Source: an uncultured Gammaproteobacteria bacterium
Lineage (GTDB): Bacteria; Patescibacteriota; Patescibacteriia; UBA9934
Assembly (NCBI GenBank): GCA_964344415.1
Contig: CAYFMS010000001.1
Location: 317,315 to 381,314 of the forward strand
Length of the DNA stretch: 64,000 nt
Direction: 5' to 3'
This document shows, in pieces, positions 4,590 through 57,025 of this stretch (the first letter of the stretch is position 1; each line of letters starts with the position of its first letter). The translations under genes and the position numbers were made by a program. A model generated the notes under the pieces. That model searched no databases. It was not told where the DNA came from and saw only the letters and a program-made list of their open reading frames with translations.

Positions 4590-4740
4590 AGTAAACAAAA
4601 TGGTTTAAAATACAGCTCGGCTTATCCACGCCGTGCTTTTTATTATCCACAGCCCTGTGATAAGGTTTGAATACAAAAGTTGTCTATGCATTTAGGCATT
4701 GAACACTTATTGAGAACAGTTAAGTAATTCATGTATCCAT

Positions 4741-5982
4741 ATGGCAGAAGTAAAGCCGGAAATTGAAACATTTGCCAAGATAAAAGTTCTTGGTGTTGGA
4801 GGTGGGGGAGGATCAGCCATTACGCGCATGATTCAAGAGAATTTGCGTGGCGTTGATTTTGTTGCGGTGAACACCGATGTTCAGGCATTGCAACAGAATC
4901 CGGCTGGCGAGAAAATCTCGATCGGAAAAACCATAACTCGCGGTCTTGGAGCTGGGATGAATCCTGACCTTGGTCGTCGCAGTGCAGAAGAGAATGCAAA
5001 TGATGTTCGGAATGTTATTGGTGGTTCGGATATGGTGTTCTTAACAGGTGGACTAGGTGGTGGAACAGGTAGTGGAGCACTTCCTGAAATTGCTAAAATT
5101 GCAAGAGAGGCGGGCGCACTTACGGTTGCTGTTGTAACGAAGCCATTCAGTTTTGAAGGAGCGCAGCGTAAACGAATTGCTGAAGATGCATATGCTGATC
5201 TCGCAGAGCATGTCGATACAATAATCACTATTCCAAATGATAGGGTATTACAAATCATCGACAAGAAAACATCTCTCATGGAAGCTTTTCAAATTGTTGA
5301 TGATGTTTTGAGACAGGGCGTTCAAGGGATTTCAGAAATTATTACTCTTCCTGGACTCATTAATGTCGACTTTGCCGATGTAAAGGCGATTATGGAAAAT
5401 GCTGGATCGGCACTTATGGGTATTGGTTCCGCTTCCGGCGAGAATCGAGCAGTTGAAGCAGCGAAGCTTGCTATTGCTAGTCCACTTCTTGAATTATCGA
5501 TTGATGGAGCGAAAGGAATTTTGTTCACGGTAACGGGAAGTTCGGATCTTGCGATGTATGAGGTAGCTGAAGCAGCAAAGATTATTACAGGGTCCGCAGA
5601 CGATGATGCAAAAGTAATTTTCGGAGCCCATGTTGACGAGAATATGGAAGATGAAGTTCGAATTACGGTTGTTGCGACTGGATTTAATGGGCGTGAACGT
5701 CGTAAAGCGCCGACACTTGCTGGTGATGTAGAAGTTGCTCCTCAATCGAGCTGGAAACCAAATCCACCACTTGAAACAATGGGTCAGCCAAAAACTACAG
5801 CAATGGAAAATCAACCGGCATCTAATCCATTCGAGAAGCGACGTATTGCTACGAATGAGCCAAGTTTTGACCGGGCACCTATGCAGAGTCAGCCTCCAGT
5901 TCGCAATCCTGAGCCTACCAAGAAAGAAGAAGATGAAGATGATCTTGGGATTCCAGCATTTATTCGAAGAAAGATGATGTAG
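4741..5982 (+). CDS. ftsZ: Cell division GTPase FtsZ
   Basis: Tubulin signature GGGTGSG (GGLGGGTGSGALP) and VLGVGGGGGSAITRM, plus a C-terminal tail. Confidence 0.95.
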   Translation: MAEVKPEIETFAKIKVLGVGGGGGSAITRMIQENLRGVDFVAVNTDVQALQQNPAGEKISIGKTITRGLGAGMNPDLGRRSAEENANDVRNVIGGSDMVFLTGGLGGGTGSGALPEIAKIAREAGALTVAVVTKPFSFEGAQRKRIAEDAYADLAEHVDTIITIPNDRVLQIIDKKTSLMEAFQIVDDVLRQGVQGISEIITLPGLINVDFADVKAIMENAGSALMGIGSASGENRAVEAAKLAIASPLLELSIDGAKGILFTVTGSSDLAMYEVAEAAKIITGSADDDAKVIFGAHVDENMEDEVRITVVATGFNGRERRKAPTLAGDVEVAPQSSWKPNPPLETMGQPKTTAMENQPASNPFEKRRIATNEPSFDRAPMQSQPPVRNPEPTKKEEDEDDLGIPAFIRRKMM

Positions 5983-6481: not shown

Positions 6482-6760
6482 CTAGGGTGTAGGGTGTAGG
6501 GTGTAGGGTGCCGTTACGGATTTACGGATAATACTGATATACGGATTTATGTGGAGGTAGAAGAGATTCAGGAGATTGAGGAGATTTTAGGAGCTTCGCG
6601 TCATTCCGGCCTCCGAGCCGGAATCCATCGTAATACGAAAGCGATGGATCCCTACCTGCCGGCAGGCAGGCCGGATCTCCGCCTCGCTCCGTCCGGGATG
6701 ACGACAAGTCCTTGTTTATGAATCATAAACGGAATTATCGTCAACTATTTTCTACTTACT
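6481..6760. repeat. Modular intergenic repeat element, copy A (inverted relative to copies B and D)
   Basis: Contains the (gggtgta)x4 heptamer run and gatatacggatt. gaagagattcaggagattgaggagatt is the reverse complement of the aatctcttcaatctcc module at 24350 and 46625. Also has the gtcattccggc hairpin and the module ggatccctacctgccggcaggcagg...gtccgggatgacgacaagtccttgtttatgaatcataaacgg, which is about 85 % identical to 40375-40465. Confidence 0.7.
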
Positions 6761-9896: not shown

Positions 9897-10658
9897 TTAG
9901 TCTCGCATGCGCCAGCCGATGCGGAATAAATGAATAACGAGAAGAAGTAATCCAATTCCGGCAGCTGCCAGTCCAATGGCTCCAATAATCAAGTTACTTT
10001 CAGAATAGTCAATCATGGAATAGCGGAGTCCATCTACCATGTAGAAAAATGGATTAACTCGCATAATGATTTGCATGGATTCTGGGAGCATATCGATGCT
10101 ATTGAAAACTCCACCAACATAAATGAGCGGCGTAATCACAAATGTCTGCAAGACCCCCAGATGCTCAAATTTCTTTGCCCAAAGAGCAATAATAAGCCCA
10201 ATCAGCGAGAAAATAACGGAAACGGCGATCACATAGAAGAGGAAGGGGATAAAATGCGCCATCGAAGCCTTGGTAAAGAAAAGAGCCAAGACATAAATAC
10301 CAGTTCCAACAGTCATAGCTCGGATAACCGCTCCGATAACATAACCAAGTACCATTTCCATATACGAAAGAGGGGAGGAAAGAATCTCTTCAATTGTTCT
10401 TCCAAATCGTTGGAAATAAAGTGAGCTTGAGCTCTGGCCATAGGCTCCTTGAACAATATTCATCATTAGAATTCCGGGGAGAACGAAATCGATATAGCTA
10501 ACGCCTTCAAGGAAGTTGATACGCTCACCGATGACGGATCCAAAAATGAAAATATACAGCATTGCGGAAATCCACGGTGAAACAAGTGTTTGAATGGGTA
10601 CGCGTCGAAAACGTTCTGTTTCTCTACGAATCGCGGTTTGTAAACGAATGAGATTCAT
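9897..10658 (-). CDS. ABC-2 type exporter permease. The start is chosen at MNLIRL, overlapping the ATPase stop.
   Basis: Six TM segments and ABC-2 family topology, downstream of the ATPase gene. Confidence 0.75.
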   Translation of the reverse strand: MNLIRLQTAIRRETERFRRVPIQTLVSPWISAMLYIFIFGSVIGERINFLEGVSYIDFVLPGILMMNIVQGAYGQSSSSLYFQRFGRTIEEILSSPLSYMEMVLGYVIGAVIRAMTVGTGIYVLALFFTKASMAHFIPFLFYVIAVSVIFSLIGLIIALWAKKFEHLGVLQTFVITPLIYVGGVFNSIDMLPESMQIIMRVNPFFYMVDGLRYSMIDYSESNLIIGAIGLAAAGIGLLLLVIHLFRIGWRMRD

Positions 10659-10659
10659 A

Positions 10660-11373
10660 TTATTTCTTTTTCGTAATTTCAAGATATTTGCGTTCCAAGT
10701 CTCCGCTTTTTTGCAATTCTCCATCCTGAATTTCGGTATGGATAATCCCTTCATGCAAAATAGCAACACGTGAGCAGAGCATCTGAACCTCTTCAAGATA
10801 ATGCGATGTCAGGATAATTGTCTTGCCATTTGAATGTAATTCGCGGAGAAAATCCCATAATTGATGACGTTGCTCGACGTCAATTCCTGCCGTTGGCTCA
10901 TCAAGGATAAGTAAGTCCGGGTCATGAATCATGGCTCTTGCAAGTGTTGCGCGACGTTTTAATCCTCCGGATAGAGCATTAAATGGTTTTTTACGATGAT
11001 CTTGTAATTCAAAGCGGTTTAGAACTTCTTCAAGGCGCTCTTTGCGCTCCTGCCTATTTAGACCGAAATACCCCGCAACATAATCAAGACTACTCTCAAG
11101 CGGTGCGAAATAATCCATATTAAAATCTTGCGGTGACAATCCGATTGCTGATCGCGTTTCTTGATAGTCATCTTTTACATCTTTTTCGAATACTTTTATC
11201 GATCCTTCGGTATATACTCCAATACCTGTGATGCAATGAATGGTTGTGCTTTTTCCAGCTCCATTTTGACCAAGCAAGCCAAAGAATTCTCCCTTTGGAA
11301 TTGTTAAATTTATTCCCTTTAACACCTCGGTTTCCCCGTAGTTTTTACGTAAATCTTTTATTTCTAGTGCATT
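10660..11373 (-). CDS. ABC transporter ATP-binding protein. The start is chosen at MNALEIKDL; the ORF track runs to 11457.
   Basis: Walker [10 protein letters not shown], signature [12 protein letters not shown] and Walker B LILDEPT. Confidence 0.9.
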
Positions 11374-11486
11374 CATACGCCCGCAGTGTAGCATATTATT
11401 TCGCATTGGTAGCTCTATGCGCTGACTCTTGCATTGAATGGGGATGTCTGTTACCATATGGCCACAATTCGACGATGAATTACCAA

Positions 11487-11563
11487 GGGCTGGTAGTTCA
11501 ATTGGTTAGAGCACCGCCCTGTCACGGCGGAAGTTGCGGGTTCGAGTCCCGTCCAGCCCGCCA
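11487..11563 (+). tRNA. tRNA-Asp (anticodon GTC) with encoded CCA
   Basis: Acceptor GGGCTGG/CCAGCCC, anticodon loop CTGTCAC, T-arm GGGTTCGAGTCCC. Confidence 0.85.
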
Positions 11564-11688
11564 CCGAGCTCAGCTCGGTTTCGTCCAGGGTGACGTGAAA
11601 GCTCAGCTTTCACTGTAGACGAAATCTCGACAAGCTGAGTGAAGGTGATCCAGCTTAGCTGGACATCTCGAGATGAGTTCGGTGGTGC

Positions 11689-11716
11689 AAAAAAGATCCT
11701 TTTGGGATCTTTTTTG
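11689..11716 (+). terminator. Rho-independent terminator after tRNA-Asp
   Basis: aagatcc-tttt-gggatctt hairpin followed by TTTTTT. Confidence 0.7.
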
Positions 11717-11730
11717 ATACACTTAATCAC

Positions 11731-12003
11731 ATGTATTTTGTTTATGTCTTAATAAGTATAAAGGATCGGAAGCTATACATAGGCTATGCGGCCGATTTAG
11801 AAAAACGTATCAAAAGGCATAATAGTGGCTATGTCACAGCTACGAAAAATCGATTGCCATTAGAACTGATTTATTACGAAGCTTATAAAACTTCAGTTGA
11901 AGCTAAGCGTCGAGAAAAATATTTAAAGGGCGGAAACGGCAGGGCTCAGTTAAAAATCCAAATCAATGAAATGCTCAAGCATTACAAGTACAATTATTTG
12001 TAG
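11731..12003 (+). CDS. Stand-alone GIY-YIG nuclease domain protein
   Basis: YFVYVLIS...KLYIGYAADLEKRIKRHN...LIYYEAY...KYLKGGNG. Confidence 0.8.
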   Translation: MYFVYVLISIKDRKLYIGYAADLEKRIKRHNSGYVTATKNRLPLELIYYEAYKTSVEAKRREKYLKGGNGRAQLKIQINEMLKHYKYNYL

Positions 12004-12133
12004 AAAAAGATTGCTCAGCTTTTGTGATCTCGGCTTTGGCTGAGTATCTTAAGATGCAAACCGATTTGTCAAAAATAAATCCCAGCCAAATAGCGCACCG
12101 AACGGTGGGTGAGTCTGTTGACAGGGATGAGTT

Positions 12134-12667
12134 CTAGTACGTGAACATTGACAGGACTGTTTCTTGCAAGGTCATTGCCGTTGGAGAAAGCACGTGAATT
12201 ACTTCCCAGAGAACTCCCAGCAGAACGACTGGCCAGAAGATAGCGGGCCATTTGCGGTAGATTTGAGAACCAACCACGGCCATGCCTACGTCGGCTATGT
12301 ACCGATTCGACCAATGCTCAACACCTGCCTTCCAGTGTGCAATAGATGAGCCGAAGTAACCCAGTTCCATCAGAAGCTCACTCACTTCCCAGAGGACAAC
12401 TGACGTGGCTAACAGTAGGAACCAGCGCTGCGTCCACCATCGACTTGCAGACTGTTCACGAGTGATTCGTTGCCACCCACCTGCCAGAATGACGCCGAAC
12501 ATGAAATGACCAATGAACCAAAGGTCGAACATGGACGAGGTCTTGTCGCCAAACAGGTGCGGAGTAAGCGTTGTGGGGGCGGTTTGTGCCTGGATGATTG
12601 CCGCAACAACCATCACAGTCACAAGTAGAACGTATACGATTACCCAAAAAGGGCCATTTTCTTTCAT
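12134..12667 (-). CDS. Integral membrane protein, hypothetical (in GC-rich island)
   Basis: 177-aa ORF with 4-5 TM segments, 55-58 % GC against the 42 % flanks. Confidence 0.5.
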   Translation of the reverse strand: MKENGPFWVIVYVLLVTVMVVAAIIQAQTAPTTLTPHLFGDKTSSMFDLWFIGHFMFGVILAGGWQRITREQSASRWWTQRWFLLLATSVVLWEVSELLMELGYFGSSIAHWKAGVEHWSNRYIADVGMAVVGSQIYRKWPAIFWPVVLLGVLWEVIHVLSPTAMTLQETVLSMFTY

Positions 12668-12740
12668 CTTACCCTCCTCAGAATATGCAAAAAGAGCTTA
12701 ACACGTCACAAAATAAGCTCCAACCGCTTCCAATAAAAAA

Positions 12741-12768
12741 GGCCGCCCTTGGGGTGGGCGGCATACGG
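12741..12768 (-). terminator. Terminator for the UbiA-like gene
   Basis: ggccgccc-ttgggg-tgggcggc hairpin. On the minus strand it is followed by a T-run. Confidence 0.55.
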
Positions 12769-12792
12769 GCGACGAGTAAATACATTTGATCA

Positions 12793-13626
12793 CTAAGTCA
12801 GCAGTAACACTAAGAGTGTTGTGACCACTACCCACTCAACCACCTTTTTTGCACGTGCGACGTATTCAGGCTGTTGTAGCATGGACGCTTGACTCAAAAC
12901 TAGGAGAGGCAGCCCTACGGAGGCTATCCAAAACACCCACTCGTTAGGGTGCAGCACCATTACCGTAGCGGGCACAGATACTAATCCGATTGAAATGAAC
13001 ACCGTCGTCTTGTGGCCATTTCTTACTGGAAGAGTAGCTTTGTATCCGTGATCTATTTCTGCGTCTTCGATATCTTTGTGAATCTCGTTGACGAACAGCA
13101 GGCCTGCAAACATGAGAAACGTGAGAACGCTTTCCGTGTTGAGTCTCTGGAAGTAGACCGCTGCACACAGCGCTGGCGAGCCACAAGACAGTGCTACAAT
13201 CAAGTTCTGACCAATGTACCAATGAGGAACGAACGAGTACAAGAGTCCTGCAAGCCAGACCAAGACGCAATAGAGCGCCAGCCATTCATCATGCAAGCCA
13301 AGAAGCAGAAGGATTCCGCACGTTACTGCACTAAGCACGACCCAATACGACCAGATTTCTTTCGGATGTTCGCTGGCAAAGAACTTACCCTTCTGACGGT
13401 CGTGATGGCGGTCCACCCAGTCATTGAACGTCATGATCGACATTGTCAGGCACATGAACCCAAACGCCGTCACGAGTAATGTACTCCACAGCACTTTTTC
13501 ACTATAGAAGCCGAAGCTCACAATAGGCAGTACAAGGCTGTAAAGCCCTGCGGTTACAGGACGTCCAGTCTGAAACAACGACCAGAAATCCACTTCGTTG
13601 TTCTTTCTGAACTGCTTACCAGACAT
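12793..13626 (-). CDS. UbiA-family aromatic/isoprenoid prenyltransferase (in GC-rich island)
   Basis: First Asp-rich motif NDxxDxxxD as FNDWVDRHHD, second Asp-rich motif KDIEDAEIDHG, and 8-9 TM segments. Confidence 0.7.
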   Translation of the reverse strand: MSGKQFRKNNEVDFWSLFQTGRPVTAGLYSLVLPIVSFGFYSEKVLWSTLLVTAFGFMCLTMSIMTFNDWVDRHHDRQKGKFFASEHPKEIWSYWVVLSAVTCGILLLLGLHDEWLALYCVLVWLAGLLYSFVPHWYIGQNLIVALSCGSPALCAAVYFQRLNTESVLTFLMFAGLLFVNEIHKDIEDAEIDHGYKATLPVRNGHKTTVFISIGLVSVPATVMVLHPNEWVFWIASVGLPLLVLSQASMLQQPEYVARAKKVVEWVVVTTLLVLLLT

Positions 13627-13866
13627 GAAGCCTCCTTGACCAAGACCTTAGCACGTTGCAAAATAAGTTCCAACCACGTTCACGCCGTCATGACATTACT
13701 TTTCTTGTAAATAAAAATCCCAACTTTGTTAAGTTGGGGTGATTCCCTGACGACTTTGCCGATAGGCGTCTACGATGAAGCCAAGAGAAATGATTTGCAT
13801 CTGATTCAGTCTTGATCGCTGTCATTGGCCTCAAGGCGAGTTATGATTTTGTGATAAGATTATCAT

Positions 13867-14094
13867 ATGACACTTCGCAGGAAAAAGCATCGCATGCCTC
13901 GATTTGTGAAAGATGCCATTGAAGCATCTAATTTGTGGTCTGCATATGAAGCTCGGCCGCCGTATCAGAGGAATGATTATATTGGTTGGATCAATCAGGC
14001 AAAGCGCGAGGAAACGAAACAAAAACGGTTACAGCAAATGATTACGGAATTGAAAGGCGGGAAGAAATACATGAACATGACATGGAAAAAATAA
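13867..14094 (+). CDS. YdeI/OmpD-associated family small protein
   Basis: C-terminal PYQRNDYIGWINQAKREETKQKRLQQMI..L..G motif. Confidence 0.65.
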   Translation: MTLRRKKHRMPRFVKDAIEASNLWSAYEARPPYQRNDYIGWINQAKREETKQKRLQQMITELKGGKKYMNMTWKK

Positions 14095-14120
14095 ACCCCC
14101 TGCGTTCAGGGGGTGTGTTG
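14085..14120. terminator. Bidirectional terminator hairpin
   Basis: aaaaaataaa-ccccctg-cgtt-caggggg-tgtgtt lying between convergent genes. Confidence 0.6.
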
Positions 14121-14136
14121 AGGGCGACTCGTATCG

Positions 14137-14490
14137 CTACGTTTTCTGCGAGTCCAGATGCAGTTCATGGGCGGTCATGGCGATGCTCGTCAGCCACTGT
14201 CTGACAGCATCGACTTCGATGCATTGACCATCGGCGCATTCGAGCAGGTCTTCATCGATCGCTTTTACCATGCCTTCTGCAGTCAGATGTTCATCGTCTA
14301 GTACTGCTTTTCTTAATGCCAGACGATGCTGGTCGAGGAGCATGCGGAAATCCAGCTGTCGTTTCGGGCTGAGTCTTCTTGGTATTGTGGTGTATGACGG
14401 CCTTTGCATGGCAATCATGCAGACGAGCTTCATTTCCAGGACATCAAGCAGATCTGCCTTCAAATCCTCTTCTATCATTTCTTCATGCAT
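14137..14490 (-). CDS. Hypothetical acidic protein (GC-rich). The start is chosen at MHEEMIEE, which has an AGGAGG RBS; the ORF track runs to 14550.
   Basis: AGGAGGTGTGAT precedes the ATG. No recognisable family. Confidence 0.45.
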   Translation of the reverse strand: MHEEMIEEDLKADLLDVLEMKLVCMIAMQRPSYTTIPRRLSPKRQLDFRMLLDQHRLALRKAVLDDEHLTAEGMVKAIDEDLLECADGQCIEVDAVRQWLTSIAMTAHELHLDSQKT

Positions 14491-14593
14491 ATCACACCTC
14501 CTATTGCATGAAAGAAAGGCAAATATACCGAAAAAATCGATTAAAGTCAATGTATTTTTGATTCGGATGGGTATGTTTTATCAATGCCTTGAG

Positions 14594-15415
14594 TTATGTA
14601 TTTTTCTCGAATTTTTTGAGACTTCTTTCCAGGCGGTCAAATTTTGCAGTCTCTTGTGCCTTCTCAAATATGGACTGTAATTTTTCTTCCTCGCCGGCGA
14701 TATCTAGATCTCGAACGGCTCGACTCATGCCGAAGACGGCCACTACTTCTGCATCAATATTGTCTTGCACGAATTGCAAGTCGGCATCATCGTATGACTT
14801 GTTTACAATAAGAAGATAAGGCGTTCCGTAATGATTGAGGAGATCGATGATTTGTTTTGCGGCCTTTACGCTATGTTCGGTGGGTTCAACGACAATCACG
14901 GCTATGTCCATGCCGCTACAGATTCCCGTACCTGCTCCGTCAGATCCAGCCTTTTCGTCCATTATGACGATTTCATTTTCCGCAAGTTTCAGAAGCGGAA
15001 GATATGCTTTGAGGGGAGTTGAAAGAATATGGCTGCATGCTTTGTCATTTAAGATGTCATCAGTATGCGGCCCAGTGATCATGAGACTCAGATTGTCATT
15101 CTGTATTGTTGTGTATTTTGTCGTGAACTCATCCGGTGAAGGTGAAAGATGAAATATTGGCATGTTTTCTGTTGTGAAAATGGCGCGGTATCCTTCTCCC
15201 TTTTCAAGCTTAGAGTATGATAATAGATCGTTCATTGCTGAACCGAGATAATTTGTTTTTTCAGACCCTTTGAATCCAAGATTATAGCTTAGGTCCATAT
15301 TGTGATCTGCATCAATAGCAAGAACGGAATAATTCTTGCTGAGTAAGTATTTTGCGAGGAGTGTACTCATGGTTGATTTTCCACTTCCGCCTTTTCCAAG
15401 GAATCCAATGATCAT
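14594..15415 (-). CDS. ParA/MinD/CooC-like P-loop ATPase (alternative TTG start at 15454)
   Basis: Deviant Walker A GKGGSGKST and the overall SIMIBI-class fold. AT-rich like the host genome. Confidence 0.75.
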   Translation of the reverse strand: MIIGFLGKGGSGKSTMSTLLAKYLLSKNYSVLAIDADHNMDLSYNLGFKGSEKTNYLGSAMNDLLSYSKLEKGEGYRAIFTTENMPIFHLSPSPDEFTTKYTTIQNDNLSLMITGPHTDDILNDKACSHILSTPLKAYLPLLKLAENEIVIMDEKAGSDGAGTGICSGMDIAVIVVEPTEHSVKAAKQIIDLLNHYGTPYLLIVNKSYDDADLQFVQDNIDAEVVAVFGMSRAVRDLDIAGEEEKLQSIFEKAQETAKFDRLERSLKKFEKNT

Positions 15416-15477
15416 AATTTGTAAAAATATTAGGCTTCGACTTGGTGTATTCAAGTCGAAGCCGAGAATGTGCCACC

Positions 15478-16260
15478 TCAGCCGAAGAGTACGTCAGCTT
15501 CCATGTGTGCATTTTCCCAGTTGATGGCGCGCGCGATTGATGCGCAAGCCTTGACTGCTTTGGAAAAGCGCAGGAAGCTATCGACTTCTGGCTCGCCGAA
15601 GTCGACGGCTCCAGCGAGTACGTAGCCAGGCAATTGCCCGATGCTGGGTGCCATCAAGTGACTCCCGAGCTCGGCCACGGTGTCACTGTCGAATTGATTT
15701 CCGACGCTCTGTCGAAGCCTGTAGTACGGGCTTGCCAGAAAATGGTCCAGGAACTCATCCGGTAGGGTGACTCCTCCGCAACAGTGTTCGAACACCATCG
15801 CGATGCCGAAGGTCGTCTTGAGCAGGGTATTGAGCTTCTTCAGCCCACCCGCTCGGAGCGGAATGCGCTCACCGAAGTGATGCATCAGCTCGGTCTCTGG
15901 CGACTTCACGCGCATGATGTGACCATCCTGCAAGCGTGTGAGTACCGAGAAGGTATTCACACTGACCGGGGGGCCATTCCAGAGCCGCTTCGGGAGAGCT
16001 GTGTAACTCTCCTCGATCTGCCGATGCACGATCTCCACGATGGTGACGATCTCGATCAGGCGTGGTGCATTGAAGCACTGCGCGATCTTTTGGATCTGCC
16101 TCGCGGTCAGATGCGGGTAGAGCTCATGGAGCACGTTCGCATCTTCTTGGTGGTACGGTCCGTACTGGGTACGAACCCAAACACCGTTTAGGGTCTTCAT
16201 TGCCGGATTGCTTGGCTTGACCGCCTCCATCAGGAGAGGGTGGTGGGCGTATTGCTGCAT
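15478..16260 (-). CDS. Hypothetical protein (GC-rich, about 58 %)
   Basis: 260-aa ORF, no family recognised. Distinct composition from the adjacent ParA-like gene. Confidence 0.45.
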   Translation of the reverse strand: MQQYAHHPLLMEAVKPSNPAMKTLNGVWVRTQYGPYHQEDANVLHELYPHLTARQIQKIAQCFNAPRLIEIVTIVEIVHRQIEESYTALPKRLWNGPPVSVNTFSVLTRLQDGHIMRVKSPETELMHHFGERIPLRAGGLKKLNTLLKTTFGIAMVFEHCCGGVTLPDEFLDHFLASPYYRLRQSVGNQFDSDTVAELGSHLMAPSIGQLPGYVLAGAVDFGEPEVDSFLRFSKAVKACASIARAINWENAHMEADVLFG

Positions 16261-16390
16261 ATATTCCTCCTTTCTCGCGCAAAGATTGAACGAGACCGTC
16301 GTATATTAACGCAATTTACTTGCGTTTGTCAATGGTGGTGCGCATAAATAAAATTATCATAGTGAATAGTTATAGGTATAATAAACGCAT

Positions 16391-16783
16391 ATGGAATATA
16401 TTGAATATGCGGAGTATGTGAAGCCGTTTTTTGCGCCGCCGGCATGGGTATTTGGCCCGGTTTGGACCGTGCTTTACATTCTGATCATTATTGGATTCGG
16501 ATATGTATTTTGGAAATGGGGAAGGGGAGATCTAAAAGCGCGACATGCGACGCCATTTGCACTTAACCTTGTTTTCAACCTTGCATTTACACCGATTCAA
16601 TTTGAATATGGGAGTTTGCTCCTTGGAAGTATTGATATTCTTTTGGTGCTTGGAACGCTTATTTGGGGAATAGTGGTTATTTGGAAAAAATATAAATGGG
16701 TTGCATTGTCGCAAATTCCATATTTGTTATGGGTGAGTTTCGCGACCGTTTTGCAATTGTCGATTCTCTTTTTGAATATGTAA
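16391..16783 (+). CDS. TspO/MBR-family tryptophan-rich membrane protein (short form)
   Basis: PPAWVFGPVWTVLYILIIIGFGYVFW matches the TspO N-terminal consensus. Four TM segments. Confidence 0.65.
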   Translation: MEYIEYAEYVKPFFAPPAWVFGPVWTVLYILIIIGFGYVFWKWGRGDLKARHATPFALNLVFNLAFTPIQFEYGSLLLGSIDILLVLGTLIWGIVVIWKKYKWVALSQIPYLLWVSFATVLQLSILFLNM

Positions 16784-16847
16784 ATGAAAATCCCGCGGGC
16801 GAGTTGAGTCTTGTTGACTCTTCTCGCTCGCGGGATAGACGACGCAT

Positions 16848-17690
16848 CTATTCGATGCGCCGAGCCCCGGGGCAGTCGTCGGTGGCATCGATGGTCTGTT
16901 GACTCATCATGCCTCCGAAGCAGCTGTCTGCCTGATCGTGACTGGTCACGCTGCCGACGACGGAGAGCAGATGAACTGCACCCTCGCCGTCACGGCAGTG
17001 GACGAGATCGCCCTCGTCCGACCACTGTCGGCACCCGGTCCAACTGAGCGTGGTATCGAGTTCGGCCGCCAGGGCTTCCGCGGACACCTTCCCGGTGGGC
17101 ATGGTCATGCCGACAATGCCGGCAAGTACCGCCAGGATCACCGCTGCTGCGATGCCGACTGGAACCCACCAGGGCGGCGTTTCGGTCACGGTGACGTCGC
17201 CGTGCACCTCCGCATCGGGCAGGGGTGCTTCCGGCTCATTCTCCTCCTCCAGTTCTTCCGGGGGAGGGGGCAGGTCGTTGCCATCCGGGTCGACGGCTTC
17301 ATTTGCAGGCTCTTCGCCTGCATTCTCGTTGCCGTTTTCGAGATCATTGTCCGCAGCAGCCGGCTCTTCGTCGACTTGCTCATCGACCTCGTGCTGGTCG
17401 ACGATGGCCTGATTGGCCGCCGCCTCGGCCTCGAGTCGCTCGCGATTATTTTGATCGGTGAGCAGCTCGCTGATCGTACCGATCAGATTGTCGTTGACGA
17501 CACGTTGCCAATTCGGACCGACGACAACATCGTCGCTATCGGGCCCGGGAACGGTCACGCCACCGTCATTGTCGACGGCAGCGAGTGCCTCATCGGCGTA
17601 CAGGTGGACTTCCACTTCACCGTCGGTGACGGTGTAGGTGTTCATGTTCTGCCGGATTTCTTCCGGCAAGGCACGGACTTCTGCACTCAT
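16848..17690 (-). CDS. Acidic membrane protein, hypothetical (GC-rich island)
   Basis: A very Asp/Glu-rich cytoplasmic part, one TM (WWVPVGIAAAVILAVLAGIVGM) and a Cys-containing extracellular tail. Confidence 0.5.
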   Translation of the reverse strand: MSAEVRALPEEIRQNMNTYTVTDGEVEVHLYADEALAAVDNDGGVTVPGPDSDDVVVGPNWQRVVNDNLIGTISELLTDQNNRERLEAEAAANQAIVDQHEVDEQVDEEPAAADNDLENGNENAGEEPANEAVDPDGNDLPPPPEELEEENEPEAPLPDAEVHGDVTVTETPPWWVPVGIAAAVILAVLAGIVGMTMPTGKVSAEALAAELDTTLSWTGCRQWSDEGDLVHCRDGEGAVHLLSVVGSVTSHDQADSCFGGMMSQQTIDATDDCPGARRIE

Positions 17691-17870
17691 TTTGTCTCCA
17701 ATGCGTATATTTCAACGCAAGAATGTACTGTTTCAACGCTAACCACCGTGGTTTGCGAAGGGTAAAAAGTAGCACAAAAAACCCATTTTGTCAATGCCTT
17801 TAAGTCCGACTAAAAAATTCTCATATAAGTGTCGATCGGTACTTATATGGATAATATGGCTAAAAATAAA

Positions 17871-17900
17871 CAAAAAAACCGCCAAAATTGGCGGTTTTTC
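17871..17900. terminator. Terminator of the infC-rpmI-rplT operon (bidirectional hairpin)
   Basis: aaaaaaaccgccaaaattggcggttttt. Confidence 0.7.
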
Positions 17901-17905
17901 ATGTT

Positions 17906-18250
17906 CTATTTGATTTCAGATACAACTTTTGCGAAAACTTCTGGATGCTTCTCTGCAATAACAGCGAGAACTTTACGATCTAGCTGTACATTTGCTTCTT
18001 TGAGTGCGTGAATGAGCTTTGAATATGTCATGTCATTCATACGCGCAGCAGCATTAATCTTCGTATTCCACAATTTTCGCATGTCGCGCTTTTTGCGTCT
18101 TCGGTCTCGGAATGCATGTGCTCCAGCCTTCAGCATGGCAGGTCTTGCAAGACGGATCTTACTTTTTCGACCCCACTTGAATCCCTTTACCTTTGAAAGC
18201 AAATTGCGTCGTCGTTTTGTATGTTGTGTACCTCTTTTAACTCTCGGCAT
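17906..18250 (-). CDS. rplT: 50S ribosomal protein L20
   Basis: MPRVKRGTQHTKRRRNLLSKVKGF... Confidence 0.95.
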   Translation of the reverse strand: MPRVKRGTQHTKRRRNLLSKVKGFKWGRKSKIRLARPAMLKAGAHAFRDRRRKKRDMRKLWNTKINAAARMNDMTYSKLIHALKEANVQLDRKVLAVIAEKHPEVFAKVVSEIK

Positions 18251-18251
18251 A

Positions 18252-18455
18252 CTATTTTACGTTATCGTATGGCAAAAGACTTCCGATTGTCTTACTTACA
18301 CTTTTTGGCATCGTAAGATCACGGCGTTTGTTTCGGCGAACTTTTCCAGACTCTTTCGCATTGAAATGGTCCTGTCCAGCCTTACGTTTCATAGCTTTTC
18401 CGCCTTTCGTGATTTTCACACGCTTAGACAGAGCTTTATATGTCTTTAGCTTCAT
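18252..18455 (-). CDS. rpmI: 50S ribosomal protein L35
   Basis: MKLKTYKALSKRVKITKGGK. Confidence 0.9.
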   Translation of the reverse strand: MKLKTYKALSKRVKITKGGKAMKRKAGQDHFNAKESGKVRRNKRRDLTMPKSVSKTIGSLLPYDNVK

Positions 18456-18508
18456 AGATTGAATTCGGGCGTATGGTAATTGAATTACCGTTTTTCGTCA
18501 AGTCGCAT

Positions 18509-19057
18509 TTATCCCGATCGTGCGATAATGGTGTGCATTCTATTTCCCGCTGATTTAATAGGGGATTCAACGCGAACGGGATAGGTTTCATTGAGTGATG
18601 CGATAAACTCATCAATAATCATCTTTGCTCGATCACGGAATGCCTTTTCGCGTCCACGTAGCATCATTTCAATACGGATTTTATTTCCCTTTTCTAGGAA
18701 TTTCAAAGCTTGCTTTCGACGAACTGCTAAATCATTTTTTCCAATGCGCATGGTGAGTCGAATACCTTTTACCTCAACTTCTTTTGAAGCAGCTCTCTGT
18801 TTGCGAGCTTCTTTTTCTTTCTGATATTTGAATGATCCAAAATCCATGATTTTACACACGGGTGGATTTGCCTTTGGTGATACCTCGATCAAGTCGAGAC
18901 CTTCAGACCGAGCCATTTCGAGTGCTTTTTCAAGCGGAAGAATATCTGCACCGCCTTCATGAACAACACGTACCTCTTCGGCCGTAATTTTTTCATTCAA
19001 TTTATATTGAGGGATGAGCTGTTTTGGCTTTCGACGCCGATGTCTATGTATGCGCAT
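18509..19057 (-). CDS. infC: Translation initiation factor IF-3
   Basis: INEKITAEEVRVV..GEQLGI-like N-domain and the C-domain motif IEVSPKANPPVCKIMDFGSFKY. Confidence 0.9.
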   Translation of the reverse strand: MRIHRHRRRKPKQLIPQYKLNEKITAEEVRVVHEGGADILPLEKALEMARSEGLDLIEVSPKANPPVCKIMDFGSFKYQKEKEARKQRAASKEVEVKGIRLTMRIGKNDLAVRRKQALKFLEKGNKIRIEMMLRGREKAFRDRAKMIIDEFIASLNETYPVRVESPIKSAGNRMHTIIARSG

Positions 19058-19059
19058 TT

Positions 19060-19722
19060 TTATTCGGTTAAAATGATTGGATAAGTAGAGTTATTTATAT
19101 AGTGTTCAATTCTTGTTTTAGAACTGTTTGCAATATTTTTAGGTAGTTGATGTGGGTCGAAGCACTTTATTTCTGCCGCTTCATTATTTTGTTTAAAGTC
19201 AATATCTATAAGATGGGATTTGTAGACAAATATCATTTGATTTTTTTCTACCTTCTGATGAATGATAACAAGTTCCGAGTCTTCGATGTTTGCTGAAATT
19301 TCTTCCCTTACCTCTCTTTTGAGAGCCACTTCAAGAGATTCATTGCTCTCAACACCACCTCCGGGGAGCATAAAATCACCCTTATCTGTATGCCGCATGA
19401 GCAGCACATTGCCTGATTTGTCTTGAATGATTGCATAGACTGCAATCTGGAATATGCTCTGCCACTGTTTTGAAGTGATAAGATGTTCCTTCTTTTTTCT
19501 CGACCAGCCTTTTATTTCTTTTTCCCGAAGCTGTGCCGTATTCAGATTCTCACATCTTTCATAATATACCAATTCAAGAGGTAATCTCTTCATTGTGTGC
19601 ACGGCGCCATTGCCTGATGCATGTTCGAGAAAACGCTCCTTGAGCCTCGTCGTTGATCCGATGTAGTAGCTATCGTCAGAGCATTTAATGATGTATATGT
19701 ATGCCTTCATAATTTTTGACAA
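19060..19722 (-). CDS. GIY-YIG nuclease domain fused to a NUDIX hydrolase domain
   Basis: N-terminus YIYIIKCSDDSYYIGSTTRLKERFLEH...LVYYE (GIY-YIG). C-terminus GGGVESNESLEVALKREVREEISA (Nudix box). Confidence 0.75.
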   Translation of the reverse strand: MSKIMKAYIYIIKCSDDSYYIGSTTRLKERFLEHASGNGAVHTMKRLPLELVYYERCENLNTAQLREKEIKGWSRKKKEHLITSKQWQSIFQIAVYAIIQDKSGNVLLMRHTDKGDFMLPGGGVESNESLEVALKREVREEISANIEDSELVIIHQKVEKNQMIFVYKSHLIDIDFKQNNEAAEIKCFDPHQLPKNIANSSKTRIEHYINNSTYPIILTE

Positions 19723-19839: not shown

Positions 19840-20220
19840 ATGGTGGACCTGGGGAGAATTGAACTCCCGTCTGGTCAGTGCTCGACCAAGAATGTTTTAC
19901 AAGTATATCTTACCTATATACATCTACCGATAAAGGCAAGAGAAAGACGATAGATGTTTCCGCGCAAACCTTTGACATTCACTCGCGGGGCATGAATGAC
20001 GCATCCTGCTATATATAACACCCAGATCGCTTTTGCGCAGGATCAAAAGCTAGGATGGCACTGCACAGTGTTAGGCAGTTGCGAATGCAGGTAGATTCAT
20101 TCGAATCAACCCACGTGAAGAGTTGTTTGCATGTATCTTCTTGTATGTGTTTTTACTGAGAACATACGGCTCAGACTTGGTTCTTGGAAGGTGCTGCTGC
20201 CATCGATTCCTGGCAGGCCC
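19840..20220 (-). ncRNA. ssrA: tmRNA (ssrA)
   Basis: 5' GGGCCUG pairs with 3' CAGGUCC-A-CCA and carries the tRNA-Ala G3·U70 wobble. T-arm is GGGAGUUCAAUUCUCCC. 5' region GGGGCCUGCCAGGAAUCGAUGG resembles the E. coli GGGGCUGAUUCUGGAUUCGACGGG. Lies directly downstream of smpB. Candidate tag ORF is GCA AAC AAC... TAA, giving ANNSSRGLIRMNLPAFATA. Confidence 0.75.
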
Positions 20221-24180: not shown

Positions 24181-24480
24181 TTTGCCGCTTGTGAGCTTGC
24201 GCTCTTGCATCTCCATGCTCCGCTCCTCGACAACGTACCTTTCAGTACGTCTTACTTCGGTGCTCGCATGTCAAAGCAATAGCATCAAGCTCACTTCGCG
24301 ACCCCATTTGAAATCCTGAGCCTGTCGAAGGATCTCTCAAATTGCGATGAGAATCTCTTCAATCTCCCAAATCTCTTCTATATCCTTTTGCACTTCTCTA
24401 TGTGCTATTTTCTACTAACTACTTACTTCGTAGCCGTCAATCCGTATATCCATACCATCTGTACATTCGTAATTATTTAC
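24175..24480. repeat. Modular intergenic repeat element, copy B
   Basis: Modules present are ttttttt-gccgcttgtgag, caacgtacctttcagtacg, gcgaccccatttgaaatcc, aatctcttcaatctcccaaatctcttctat and ccgtatatcc. Confidence 0.7.
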
Positions 24481-24519: not shown

Positions 24520-24553
24520 TTGACAAATTGCCTATTTTTTGGTATAAATGTTA
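24520..24553 (+). promoter_or_regulatory. Near-consensus sigma70-type promoter
   Basis: TTGACA, 17 nt, TATAAA. Followed by an approximately 215-nt GC-rich, hairpin-rich 5' leader before the ATG at 24772. Confidence 0.55.
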
Positions 24554-24771
24554 ACCTTTCGGGCTGTAGCGGTCTGGCGTCCGGGAAACACCCCTCCTTG
24601 TTTTCCTGTCGATGTCGGACCACTAGAGAATGAAAGGAAGAGTAGAGCATTCGCCGTATGTGAGAGGGTATACGGCGAGTGCGCTGCGGCTGCAACGTTT
24701 AGGCCTTGTGGCCCTCGCATTCAACACTTTCACAAGATTCCCTGCGAGTCAGCGGGGTAAAGGAGACAGCG

Positions 24772-25875: not shown

Positions 25876-26063
25876 CTCCGAACTGGGGCGACCGCGATAC
25901 GCATAGCGTATTCGCGGTCGCCCTGACCTATTACTCAGAATGTACACAGATTGTAATTCAAGAATGAATTTCAGCCTGAGTACATGCTGCAAGGCTGTAC
26001 GAGAACCTTACAATTTTGTCCCATTCCGGGACATTCAACCCCCGGAATGGGGAAGGAGACAAC

Positions 26064-52889: not shown

Positions 52890-52962
52890 GTTCCCTCCTT
52901 GCCTGTTTAATACCATGTTTTGCTATAAATGTCAATCCAAAAACTCACGGATCTCACGCCAT

Positions 52963-56892: not shown

Positions 56893-57025
56893 TTGAATAT
56901 ATCAAGAGATAGTTAGGGAACGAGCCCATTGATCTGTCCGCAACCTGCCATTGGTAAGGTGCGAATTCTCGCCCAAAGGGAAAGATAAATTTTAACCACT
57001 CTTTTCCCGGAGTGGATTTTCATTT
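56893..57025 (+). promoter_or_regulatory. SAM-I (S-box) riboswitch with terminator expression platform upstream of metK
   Basis: aUAUCAAGAG..AGGGA..GAGCCCaUUGA..CGCAACC..GGUGCGAAUUCuC..GGAAAGAUaAA matches the S-box consensus blocks. This is followed by ccactc-ttttcccg-gagtgg then attttcattt (terminator). Confidence 0.7.

What the first reader, a model, noticed from the sequence alone, without database searches (positions are those of the whole stretch)
12100..17700. Mosaic of GC-rich islands (UbiA prenyltransferase, polytopic membrane protein, unknown 260-aa and acidic membrane proteins) embedded in AT-rich genome
Genes at 12134-12667, 12793-13626, 14137-14490, 15478-16260 and 16848-17690 are 52-60 % GC. 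Interleaved genes (GIY-YIG, YdeI-like, ParA-like, TspO, ribosomal operon) are about 40 %. The two membrane genes at 12134 and 12793 each have a conserved upstream motif (cacgtYRcaaaataagYtccaacc), with copies at about 12695-12725 and 13655-13690. A UbiA-family enzyme would be unusual in a reduced CPR-like genome.
Basis: partly seen in the sequence, partly recalled or inferred. Interest (0 to 1): 0.5.

Follow-up and report, generated by a model that had tools for sequence, protein, structure and literature searches.

The report
GC-rich accessory genes beside rplT
In a small AT-rich "Candidatus Uhrbacteria" (CPR) chromosome, five genes next to a ribosomal-protein operon are much more GC-rich than their neighbours, and their relatives in other CPR genomes show the same GC excess, so it travels with these gene families and is not a simple fresh import from a foreign bacterium.

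Summary
Five minus-strand ORFs in 12134-17690 have 49-62 % GC (GC3 0.55-0.71). Interleaved genes have 35-43 % GC (GC3 0.33-0.46). The 41-nt upstream motif occurs exactly twice. The same sequence was assembled from three sequencing runs, so it is not a chimera.

This is not a tRNA-linked island. I found no integrase and no repeat of the tRNA-Asp end, and the GC excess stops at the ORF boundaries, next to AT-rich host-type promoters and terminators. The segment is the variable stretch between rplT and pyk of a Candidatus Uhrbacteria chromosome.

Four units are present:
- B and A: a UbiA-superfamily prenyltransferase and a partner membrane protein. The two are fused in relatives.
- D: the conserved partner of the "ParA-like" gene, which is CooC-like. 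D has no solved-fold match.
- E: a bitopic envelope protein in a slot directly 3' of rplT that many Uhrbacteria fill with a similar, GC-rich gene.
- C: an ORFan.

All detected homologues lie in CPR-like contexts. The UbiA relatives exceed their neighbours' GC3 in 15 of 15 loci. Core genes track host GC3 with slope about 1, while these genes have slope about 0.5.

Most likely these are intra-Patescibacteria flexible genes kept GC-rich by repeated exchange and/or a GC-biased process. That mechanism is unresolved.

The parts
11487..11563 (+). tRNA-Asp(GTC). It borders the variable segment but is not an integration scar.
   Evidence: ARAGORN and Rfam. Its 3' 28 nt occur only once in the window with up to 3 mismatches allowed.
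11731..12003 (+). Stand-alone GIY-YIG nuclease gene (90 aa, GC3 0.37), next to A.
   Evidence: Pfam GIY-YIG 3.9e-16. Homologues are scattered in 20 of the related loci. A 49 % identical copy lies 1.2 kb from the UbiA-A fusion in L099.
12134..12667 (-). A: 177-aa membrane protein and partner of the UbiA enzyme. GC 51 %, GC3 0.57.
   Evidence: BLASTP 1e-23 to the C-terminal domain of the fusion protein P0012. tblastn finds the same domain fused to UbiA in L099-L103. Invariant D48, H54, E94, E97, E101, K113, E117, N121, R122 and D126. At least 3 hydrophobic segments.
12692..12732 (-). Promoter-like motif copy 1, upstream of A (TTGGAG-17 nt-TAAGCT, then GAGGAGGG and ATG).
12742..12762 (-). Intrinsic terminator after B (GCCGCCC...GGGCGGC followed by a T-run). 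It separates B and A into two transcription units.
12793..13626 (-). B: UbiA-superfamily prenyltransferase, 277 aa, 7 hydrophobic segments. GC 49 %, GC3 0.57.
   Evidence: Pfam PF01040 73.9 bits against a cut-off of 34.2. Invariant N68-D69-x2-D72-x3-D76 and K184-D185-x2-D188-x3-D192. Far below every NCBIfam equivalog cut-off. No PDB sequence hit. Hydrophobic segments.
13642..13682 (-). Promoter-like motif copy 2, upstream of B (TTGGAA-17 nt-TAAGGT, then AGGAGG and ATG).
13719..13738 (-). Terminator-like hairpin with a T-run just upstream of B's promoter.
13867..14094 (+). YdeI/OmdA-like gene (75 aa, GC3 0.46). An AT-rich accessory gene.
   Evidence: Pfam OmdA 1e-14. Absent from relatives' flanks.
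14137..14490 (-). C: 117-aa acidic ORFan. GC 50 %, GC3 0.55. It has its own TTGACT-17-TATATT promoter (14550-14522) and a terminator (14114-14095).
   Evidence: Only itself found among 5.8 billion proteins. No Pfam, NCBIfam or PHROG hit. Promoter and terminator.
14594..15415 (-). Conserved partner of D.
   Evidence: The only PDB hit is CooC1 3kje, 2.1e-7 over the full length. It is 49 % identical to the gene next to the D homologue in L114. A C-S-H motif at about residue 126 is conserved in 5 of 5 loci.
15433..15463 (-). Strong terminator-like hairpin between D and the CooC-like gene.
15478..16260 (-). D: 260-aa soluble protein of a rare CPR family with no solved-fold match. GC 57 %, GC3 0.71. 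Promoter TTGACA-18-TAATAT at 16332-16303.
16391..16783 (+). TspO/MBR gene (130 aa, GC3 0.40). An AT-rich accessory gene, convergent with E.
   Evidence: Pfam 3e-29. Found in only 1 of 80 relatives' flanks.
16848..17690 (-). E: 280-aa bitopic envelope protein with an acidic N-terminal part, one TM helix (171-189) and an 83-aa C-terminal domain with 4 Cys. GC 62 %, GC3 0.71. It occupies the slot directly 3' of rplT.
   Evidence: A same-strand ORF directly 3' of rplT (within 350 bp) was called in 43 relatives; their GC3 excess averages +0.12, and 18 of 43 are bitopic against 84 of 1070 control ORFs. The 4 Cys align with those of L004 8382-10004, but the similarity is weak.
17873..17900 (.). Bidirectional terminator hairpin after rplT. 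E's promoter region follows it.
17906..19057 (-). infC-rpmI-rplT operon (GC3 0.33-0.40). It is the edge of the block PDZ..rplT, which is syntenic in about 80 Uhrbacteria.

Best explanation
This is not one island. It is the flexible stretch between rplT and pyk of a Candidatus Uhrbacteria chromosome.

It holds separately transcribed accessory units. Their ORFs are GC-rich, but their promoters and terminators are not.
- B and A: a UbiA-superfamily prenyltransferase and a partner membrane protein. Each has a copy of one sigma70-like promoter, and the two are encoded as one fused protein in relatives. This implies one membrane-embedded prenyl-transfer pathway.
- D: the conserved partner of a CooC-like metallochaperone ATPase. 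In relatives the pair lies in ZIP/CobW/Fur metal clusters.
- E: the lineage's fast-diverging bitopic envelope protein in the slot 3' of rplT.
- C: an ORFan.

Shown: these families and this slot carry a GC3 excess in many CPR genomes, and they follow the host's GC3 only about half as steeply as core genes do.

Inferred: the genes belong to an intra-Patescibacteria flexible, recombination-prone gene pool. Repeated exchange with GC-richer relatives and/or a GC-favouring process such as GC-biased gene conversion keeps them above the AT-drifting core. A one-off import from a GC-rich non-CPR donor does not fit.
For: Region and structure:
- The composition is real and reproducible.
- The block PDZ..infC-rpmI-rplT is syntenic in about 80 Uhrbacteria. 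The DNA beyond rplT varies, and pyk lies 0.3-9 kb away in relatives.
- The GC excess is confined to ORFs, which are flanked by canonical AT-rich promoters and terminators.

GC3 outliers across relatives:
- GC3 outliers of +0.18 or more make up 3 % of ORFs in the syntenic block, 11 % downstream of rplT and 25 % beyond the PDZ gene. Overall there are 120 positive and 16 negative outliers.
- Control families (infC, rplT, smpB, the AI-2E permease, PDZ and pyk, among others) average -0.04 to +0.01.
- Regression of gene GC3 on host GC3 gives slopes of 0.94-1.11 for core genes, 0.53 for UbiA and 0.54 for the slot genes.

UbiA family and A:
- Only 12 clusters exist among 5.8 billion proteins. All those placed are in CPR-like contexts, at different loci, and GC3 exceeds the neighbours' in 15 of 15 loci, by +0.175 on average.
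- In the syntenic smc-ubiA-rpsP lineage the gene is 71-76 % identical, similar to smc at 75-84 %, yet it keeps +0.13 to +0.17 GC3 over the adjacent smc gene.
- A is fused to UbiA in 5 loci.

D and the CooC-like gene:
- The pair co-varies across 5 genomes. GC3 of D versus the CooC-like gene is 0.71/0.39 in the window, 0.88/0.44 in L114 and 0.69/0.50 in L118.

E slot:
- 18 of 43 slot ORFs are bitopic against 84 of 1070 controls (p = 4e-9). The mean GC3 excess is +0.12.

Literature:
- Most detected transfers into Patescibacteria are single genes from other Patescibacteria (PMC12455944).
- Recombining bacterial genes are GC3-richer (PMC4450053).
Against: - No donor, mobile-element gene or recombination tract was identified.
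- The implied 'pool' GC3 of about 0.76-0.79 is above almost all sampled Uhrbacteria loci. That is awkward for pure exchange among these genomes.
- The GC3 gaps of +0.3 to +0.5 are far larger than the effects reported for bacterial gBGC.
- The D/CooC-like pair is co-inherited but compositionally split. Neither neutral amelioration nor whole-cluster transfer explains this.
- D homologues in L115 (0.23) and L116 (0.54) are not strongly GC-rich, so the excess is not universal in the family.
- Orthology of E with the slot genes rests on position and architecture. Sequence support is weak: BLASTP E = 0.5, and 38 of 2000 shuffles reach the ectodomain score.
- The loci compared are not phylogenetically independent, and ORFs were called mechanically.
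Confidence: 0.5

Rival explanations
1. Gene-intrinsic selection on synonymous sites. These particular ORFs would be kept GC-rich (C-ending codons) by selection and independently of gene exchange. Possible reasons are suppressing spurious AT-rich internal promoters in tightly regulated genes, tuning translation speed or mRNA stability, or making transcription Rho-sensitive.
For: - The GC jump coincides with ORF boundaries.
- The co-inherited D/CooC-like pair keeps D well above its partner in three genomes.
- The vertically inherited smc-ubiA-rpsP lineage keeps a roughly constant +0.13 to +0.17 GC3 over the adjacent smc gene while the host GC3 differs.
- Between the close relatives L099 and L102, 4-fold sites of the UbiA-A gene are 81 % identical against 44-70 % in flanking genes. 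This is compatible with synonymous constraint.
- Third positions are C-rich.
Against: - Amino-acid composition is also shifted: fewer F, Y, M, I, N and K residues and a lower K/(K+R) ratio. The effect is therefore not purely synonymous.
- Other membrane and fast-evolving genes (the AI-2E permease, h254, PDZ, h133) show no excess.
- D homologues in L115 and L116 lack it.
- I know of no precedent of this size.
- The low synonymous divergence is equally explained by recent exchange.
Confidence: 0.22
2. Classic recent horizontal acquisition from GC-rich non-CPR donors, for example the host bacterium of this episymbiont. Insertion would be next to tRNA-Asp, with amelioration incomplete.
For: - Codon use and amino-acid composition of D and E resemble those of high-GC organisms.
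- None of the five has a homologue in relatives' flanks.
- C is an ORFan, and D has only 10 remote homologues.
- A tRNA gene and a GIY-YIG nuclease gene border the segment.
Against: - There is no integrase, no repeat of the tRNA end and no flanking direct repeats.
- The GC-rich ORFs are interleaved with AT-rich genes and carry host-type promoters.
- Every placed homologue of B, A and D sits in a CPR-like context.
- The GC excess recurs in relatives.
- D is co-inherited with its AT-rich partner.
- No phage, plasmid or viral-contig relatives were found.
Confidence: 0.1
3. Remnant of a mobile element, either a plasmid or phage with a ParA partition gene or moron-like cassettes of promoter, gene and terminator.
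For: - A and B are each a promoter-ORF-terminator cassette.
- The P-loop ATPase hits ParA-type models weakly.
- GIY-YIG genes are nearby.
Against: - The ATPase is CooC-like and paired with D in metal-homeostasis clusters, not with a ParB or a centromere.
- A-E have no PHROG hits.
- No integrase, replication or structural genes are present.
- The tested genes (UbiA and D) have no viral-contig, phage or plasmid relatives.
Confidence: 0.05
4. Assembly or binning artefact, with GC-rich reads from another organism stitched into an AT-rich contig.
For: The source is a metagenome assembly. I could not inspect read coverage.
Against: - An identical arrangement appears in independent assemblies of three runs: a 12.5-kb Logan contig and a 4.1-kb Logan contig, both 100 % identical, and a 2.95-kb ENA contig at 99.9 %.
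- Ten composition switches fall exactly at gene boundaries with intact promoters and terminators.
- The same pattern occurs in other CPR genomes, including a finished chromosome, OZ246405.1.
Confidence: 0.02

Closest known systems
Individually transferred genes and genomic islands in Patescibacteria (PMC12455944)
   Same: These are single accessory genes in streamlined CPR genomes with relatives mainly in other Patescibacteria. They are often membrane or metal-related.
   Different: That study detects transfers by phylogenetic incongruence. It does not report a GC excess linked to a gene family or a genomic slot. Here there are no mobility genes, and part of the set (E, and D with the CooC-like gene) looks co-inherited or position-conserved.
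GC-rich variable surface-protein loci in AT-rich genomes, such as the Borrelia vls cassettes (about 50 % G+C; PMC3303823). The Mycoplasma P1/RepMP regions are a further example from my own knowledge.
   Same: An envelope-protein gene (E, and also F'/G outside the range) is far GC-richer than its genome, diverges very fast and sits at a fixed position.
   Different: No silent cassettes or intragenomic repeats of E were found. Gene conversion is not shown. A, B and D are not surface-variation genes.
GC-biased gene conversion in bacteria (Lassalle et al. 2015, PMC4450053)
   Same: The direction of the effect (higher GC3) and its association with recombination-prone or flexible loci.
   Different: As I recall, the reported gaps are much smaller than the 0.2-0.5 GC3 excess here. 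Recombination was not measured here.
Phage 'morons' (own knowledge; Hendrix and colleagues)
   Same: The architecture of promoter, single ORF and terminator with composition unlike the neighbours, as seen for A and B.
   Different: The location is a cellular chromosome with no prophage genes. No PHROG or viral-contig matches were found.
UbiA superfamily of intramembrane prenyltransferases (the closest NCBIfam models are prenyltransferase PRK12884 and archaeal GGGP/DGGGP-synthase-like models)
   Same: The Pfam domain, both Asp-rich motifs and a polytopic membrane topology.
   Different: Scores are far below every equivalog cut-off (51.6 against 269 bits). The subfamily is rare and was seen only in CPR-like contexts. 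It has family-specific fusion partners: the A domain, or an N-terminal domain of about 210 aa with a DDLLDxExD motif. The substrate is unknown.
CooC, the Ni-inserting ATPase of CO dehydrogenase (PDB 3kje)
   Same: Full-length similarity, the deviant Walker A motif GKGGSGKST, and a conserved Cys-containing motif at the equivalent region.
   Different: The motif is C-S-H, not C-x-C. No CODH/ACS genes are present. The partner is the uncharacterised D family, and relatives sit with ZIP, CobW and Fur genes.

Membership tests
tRNA-linked integrative genomic island | Integrase or recombinase gene at one end | tested here: not met
   All ORFs of 130 aa or more in 10.5-19.5 kb are accounted for, either as named genes or as antisense ORFs inside GC-rich genes. 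No integrase hit in Pfam, NCBIfam or PHROGs.
tRNA-linked integrative genomic island | Direct repeat of the tRNA 3' end at the distal border | tested here: not met
   The 3' 28 nt of tRNA-Asp occur once in 64 kb with up to 3 mismatches.
tRNA-linked integrative genomic island | One contiguous block of atypical composition | tested here: not met
   Five GC-rich ORFs alternate with AT-rich genes and AT-rich intergenic regions.
UbiA prenyltransferase superfamily (B) | PF01040 match above the gathering score | tested here: met
   73.9 bits against a cut-off of 34.2, E = 1.6e-20.
UbiA prenyltransferase superfamily (B) | Two Asp-rich motifs (NDxxDxxxD and DxxxD) | tested here: met
   N68, D69, D72 and D76, and K184, D185, D188 and D192, are invariant in 10 homologues.
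UbiA prenyltransferase superfamily (B) | Membership of a characterised subfamily (MenA, UbiA, DGGGPS and others) | tested here: not met
   The best NCBIfam equivalog scores 51.6 bits against a cut-off of 269. No PDB sequence match at E <= 0.01.
UbiA prenyltransferase superfamily (B) | Prenyl-transfer activity and substrate | not testable with these tools
   Requires biochemistry.
ParA/Soj partition ATPase (gene 14594-15415) | Deviant Walker A motif | tested here: met
   GKGGSGKST at the N-terminus. This motif is shared with MinD, CooC and NifH relatives.
ParA/Soj partition ATPase (gene 14594-15415) | Adjacent ParB or centromere-binding partner, and a score above the family cut-off | tested here: not met
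   NCBIfam ParA_partition scores 40 bits against a cut-off of 180. The conserved neighbour is the D family, not a ParB.
CooC-type metallochaperone ATPase (gene 14594-15415) | Full-length similarity to CooC | tested here: met
   The only PDB hit is 3kje CooC1, residues 3-243 against 3-230, E = 2.1e-7.
CooC-type metallochaperone ATPase (gene 14594-15415) | C-x-C metal-binding motif | tested here: inconclusive
   C-S-H at about residue 126 is conserved in 5 of 5 homologues. I did not verify by structure that it is equivalent to C-x-C.
CooC-type metallochaperone ATPase (gene 14594-15415) | Linkage to CODH/ACS genes | tested here: not met
   No such genes appear in the window or in relatives. Relatives show ZIP and FUR (plus CobW in L116) together with the D family instead.
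Phage moron | Own promoter, single ORF and terminator | tested here: met
   A and B.
Phage moron | Located inside a prophage or phage genome | tested here: not met
   No PHROG hits for A-E. No viral-contig or phage relatives of UbiA.
Gene-conversion antigenic-variation locus (vls-like) | Expression gene much GC-richer than the genome | tested here: met
   E has 62 % GC against 45 % for the window.
Gene-conversion antigenic-variation locus (vls-like) | Silent donor cassettes or repeats of the gene | tested here: not met
   No repeat of E in the 64-kb window. The remaining 700 kb of the contig was not available.

The most novel reading that the evidence does not exclude
In Uhrbacteria, and more widely in CPR genomes, a defined subset of gene families and genomic slots is held at a GC3 far above that of the genome, across lineages. 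The subset includes the envelope-protein slot 3' of rplT, the lipoprotein slot beyond the PDZ protease, a CPR-restricted UbiA module, and the partner of a CooC-like ATPase. These genes follow the host's composition only half as steeply as core genes do. That would reveal a strong gene-specific GC-biased evolutionary force in reduced genomes, such as recombination-linked gene conversion or synonymous selection. It is the opposite of the usual AT-rich signature of bacterial accessory and ORFan genes.
Probability: 0.3. Interest if true: 0.7.

Novelty: new variant of a known kind. Interest (0 to 1): 0.5.

Why it matters
- Compositional islands are routinely read as fresh foreign DNA. Here the GC excess recurs in homologues and positional counterparts in many CPR genomes, and even inside a co-inherited gene pair. 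GC-based calls of HGT or contamination in CPR MAGs may therefore misclassify lineage-typical genes.
- If a GC-favouring force acts on flexible or envelope genes of these tiny genomes, it offers a way to study how base composition is set in bacteria (gBGC versus selection).
- The work defines three testable functional modules with no characterised members:
  - a CPR-restricted UbiA enzyme with a partner membrane domain;
  - a protein family with no solved-fold match, paired with a CooC-like metallochaperone in Zn/Fur-type clusters;
  - a hypervariable envelope protein encoded 3' of rplT.

Tried and rejected
Negative searches:
- tRNA-end repeat: only the tRNA itself.
- Flanking direct or inverted repeats around A-E: only short chance-level matches apart from the promoter motif.
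- The motif in other loci or elsewhere in the window: none. UbiA homologues in L084 and L085 have a similar terminator-promoter layout but not the same sequence.
- Rfam: nothing in the islands.
- PHROGs and NCBIfam: nothing for A, C, D or E.
- Viral contigs (UbiA), phage records (UbiA) and plasmids (D): no relatives.
- The D alignment was too divergent for a viral-contig scan.
- PDB sequence searches for B and D: none.
- phmmer of E against the ORFs of about 80 related loci (incl. the Uhrbacteria set): no hit.
- PRJEB17505 is not mentioned in the paper library.

Technical failures:
- The AF2 model of A was too poor to use (pLDDT 50, 2-sequence alignment).
- The afdb50 fold library was unavailable.

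Hypotheses rejected:
- A general membrane-protein effect on GC3. The AI-2E permease and h254 show no excess.
- An A-specific, DGR-like depletion. Both A and T are depleted at third positions.
- An expression-linked codon bias. Ribosomal and translation genes are AT-rich at third positions.
- L003 and L121 as strain variants. They are 100 % and 99.9 % identical to the window.

Full report

Yes.
- Sliding-window GC and per-gene values show five minus-strand ORFs that stand out. A is 12134-12667 (51 % GC, GC3 0.57). B is 12793-13626 (49 %, 0.57). C is 14137-14490 (50 %, 0.55). D is 15478-16260 (57 %, 0.71). E is 16848-17690 (62 %, 0.71).
- The genes between them are much lower: GIY-YIG, YdeI/OmdA, a P-loop ATPase, TspO and infC-rpmI-rplT have 35-43 % GC and GC3 0.33-0.46.
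- The window as a whole is 45 % GC.
- The upstream motif exists. 12692-12732 and 13642-13682 are 80 % identical over 41 nt. The pattern has two matches in the window and none in shuffles.
- tRNA-Asp is at 11487-11563.
- Similar GC-rich genes exist elsewhere in the window, at about 24772-27584, 41732-43021 and 51825-52916.

**2. Source and artefact check**

- The window is part of a 768-kb contig (ENA ERZ930061, run ERR2281801).
- The same arrangement was assembled independently from ERR2281800 (12.5 kb) and ERR2281802 (2.95 kb, 3 mismatches), and as a separate 4.1-kb contig from ERR2281801.
- Ten composition switches fall at gene boundaries with intact promoters and terminators.
- A chimera is therefore very unlikely. 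I could not inspect read depth.

**3. Host and synteny**

- IF3 retrieves Candidatus Uhrbacteria / Patescibacteria MAGs, the best at 84 % identity. Several records carry a default 'Gammaproteobacteria' label, but their gene content is that of CPR bacteria.
- In about 80 relatives the block PDZ protease-h254-h133-AI-2E permease-smpB-infC-rpmI-rplT is syntenic.
- The DNA beyond rplT is variable, and pyk lies 0.3-9 kb away.
- The finding therefore lies in a flexible segment. None of A-E, nor the YdeI or P-loop ATPase genes, has a homologue in relatives' 10-kb flanks. TspO occurs in one.
- I found no integrase-sized unexplained ORF, no repeat of the tRNA end and no flanking repeats.

**4. What the genes are**

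*B and A*
- B is a UbiA-superfamily prenyltransferase. The Pfam score is above the cut-off, both Asp-rich motifs are invariant and there are seven hydrophobic segments.
- B is far below every characterised subfamily. It has only 12 relatives among 5.8 billion proteins.
- A is homologous to the C-terminal domain of fusion proteins in which it follows the UbiA domain (BLASTP 1e-23; five loci). The domain order is the same as the B-then-A gene order here.
- Other relatives carry an N-terminal domain of about 210 aa instead.
- A and B are separated by a terminator, and each has a copy of one promoter (TTGGAR-17 nt-TAAGST, then an RBS).
- They are thus a split, probably co-regulated two-protein module. 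That they act in one prenyl-transfer pathway is inferred, and the substrate is unknown.

*D and the 'ParA-like' gene*
- D has 10 remote homologues.
- Each of the five placed homologues whose contig includes a neighbouring gene is adjacent to a homologue of the window's 'ParA-like' gene. In three loci the pair lies beside ZIP and Fur genes, and in L116 also CobW.
- The ATPase's only PDB match is CooC1, over its full length. It has a C-S-H motif conserved in 5 of 5 loci.
- Identities of D and the ATPase co-vary across genomes, so they are inherited as a pair.
- The likely role, inferred only, is a metal-dependent protein matured or served by a CooC-like metallochaperone.

*E*
- E has an acidic N-terminal part, one TM helix and an 83-aa C-terminal domain with four Cys.
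- In 43 relatives a same-strand ORF begins directly 3' of rplT (within 350 bp). Of these, 18 are bitopic with one internal TM, against 84 of 1070 other ORFs (Fisher p = 4e-9).
- The closest relative's slot protein (L004, 540 aa) aligns its four Cys with those of E. The similarity is statistically weak.
- E is therefore most likely the local version of a fast-diverging envelope protein typical of the lineage, not an insertion.

*C*
- C is an ORFan.

**5. The GC excess travels with families and slots**

- *UbiA family.* GC3 exceeds the median of neighbouring ORFs in 15 of 15 loci, by +0.175 on average (sign test 6e-5; underlying data).
- The three syntenic smc-ubiA-rpsP loci are included. There the gene has diverged about as much as smc (71-76 % against 75-84 %) yet keeps +0.13 to +0.17 GC3 over the adjacent smc gene.
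- *D and the CooC-like gene.* GC3 is 0.71/0.39 in the window, 0.88/0.44 in L114 and 0.69/0.50 in L118. It is 0.54/0.44 in L116 and 0.23/0.30 in L115.
- *Slot 3' of rplT.* The mean excess is +0.12, and 33 % of the ORFs are at +0.15 or more.
- *Lipoprotein G.* Homologues of G (26064-27584) sit at the syntenic place in L006, L044 and L058. Their GC3 is 0.91, 0.73 and 0.94, next to genes at 0.37-0.50.
- *Controls.* infC, rplT, smpB, the AI-2E permease, h254, PDZ, h133 and pyk average -0.04 to +0.01.
- *Outliers.* Across all loci there are 120 positive and 16 negative outliers. They are concentrated in the variable zones: 11 % and 25 % of ORFs, against 3 % in the syntenic block.
- *Regression on host GC3.* Slopes are 0.94-1.11 for core genes, 0.53 for UbiA and 0.54 for the slot. 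The cross-over lies near GC3 0.76-0.79.
- *Other signals.* Third positions are C-rich, with both A and T depleted. Amino-acid composition is shifted too.
- *Close relatives.* Between L099 and L102, 4-fold sites of the UbiA-A gene are 81 % identical against 44-70 % in flanking genes.

**6. Interpretation**

- A single recent import from a GC-rich non-CPR donor does not fit. The homologues are in CPR-like contexts, the excess recurs in relatives, D is co-inherited with an AT-rich partner, and the promoters are host-type.
- I found no evidence for a mobile-element remnant.
- Two readings remain.
  - (a) These are flexible, recombination-prone genes exchanged among Patescibacteria. Single-gene intra-phylum transfers dominate in PMC12455944. 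Uhrbacteria loci span a median GC3 of 0.24-0.83. The genes would be held GC-rich by repeated replacement and/or GC-biased gene conversion (PMC4450053).
  - (b) Gene-specific selection acts on synonymous sites.
- The half-slope regression, the positive-only asymmetry and the split D/CooC-like pair argue for some GC-favouring force beyond neutral amelioration.
- The size of the effect and the absence of a GC-rich reservoir are unexplained.
- I rank (a) first at about 0.5 and (b) at about 0.2. The discriminating test is polarised polymorphism together with per-gene recombination.

**7. Comparison with known systems, and novelty**

- Compositional islands and HGT in CPR are known.
- GC-rich variable surface loci in AT-rich genomes are known (the vls locus, PMC3303823), but no donor cassettes were found here.
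- The promoter-ORF-terminator layout resembles phage morons, but there is no phage context.
- The new element is that the GC excess is linked to gene families and genomic slots across CPR genomes. This is the opposite of the usual AT-rich accessory-gene signature. It rests on mechanically called ORFs and on loci that are not phylogenetically independent.
- Verdict: a real feature, partly reinterpreted. It is a new variant of a known kind, of moderate interest.

Noticed in passing
window 41209-44505: A compact CRISPR-Cas locus. Repeats of about 37 nt (GTAGCATACCACTCCCTCTCCCGAAGGAGGGGTGTGAACC) spaced 71-72 nt form two arrays, 41209-41397 and 43852-44254. They flank a GC-rich 429-aa TnpB/Cas12-like ORF (41732-43021, minus strand) and a short Cas1 (43095-43799, minus strand). 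A 297-nt duplication (41352-41648 and 44209-44505) is 93 % identical. ORF 40795-41697 is probably spurious.
   Followed up: partly
window 24556-24772 (and L004 1-165): A structured non-coding leader or small RNA lies between a TTGACA-17-TATAAT promoter (24521-24549) and the ATG of a GC-rich secreted protein. It is 86 % identical to the closest relative, with an uninterrupted identical run of about 60 nt, whereas coding genes are about 67-79 % identical. Folding z-score is -4.8, and there is no Rfam match at E <= 1.
   Followed up: partly
window 24772-27584: A second GC-rich pair lies just beyond the PDZ protease. One gene encodes a signal-peptide/coiled-coil protein (plus strand; the 420-aa minus-strand ORF is antisense). 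The other encodes lipoprotein G, with Ser/Asp 12- and 18-nt tandem repeats and MopE-type motifs. Homologues of G at the syntenic place in L006, L044 and L058 have GC3 0.73-0.94.
   Followed up: partly
window 51825-52916: A GC-rich lipoprotein (GC3 0.68) with an FGE-sulfatase / C-type-lectin-like domain, a fold often used by diversity-generating retroelement targets. I did not look for a reverse transcriptase, and no template/variable repeat pair was reported.
   Followed up: no
window 6511-6586, 24343-24472, 46616-46703; also 6645-6746, 40195-40226, 40376-40467, 61399-61430: Two families of short intergenic repeats. One is about 130 nt, with one copy inverted. The other contains CCTGCCGGCAGGCAGGC. 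Some copies lie at borders of variable or GC-rich segments.
   Followed up: no
[not shown]
   Followed up: partly
L085 (OZ246405.1, 1.23-Mb chromosome from the same sample): Another CPR genome, with background GC3 of about 0.22, shows the same single-gene GC-rich mosaic. The GC-rich genes are at 4717-5256, 10001-10843 (UbiA), 11466-11729, 15921-16730 and 17058-17834.
   Followed up: no
window 11731-12003 and 19060-19710: Two GIY-YIG nuclease genes, one fused to a NUDIX domain, flank the infC-rplT/variable region. Homologues are scattered at varying positions in 20 related loci, and one lies near the UbiA-A fusion in L099. A role in generating the variability is untested.
   Followed up: no
window 19841-20220 and 56896-56991: tmRNA (minus strand) lies next to smpB. 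A SAM riboswitch lies upstream of the gene that starts at 57028.
   Followed up: no
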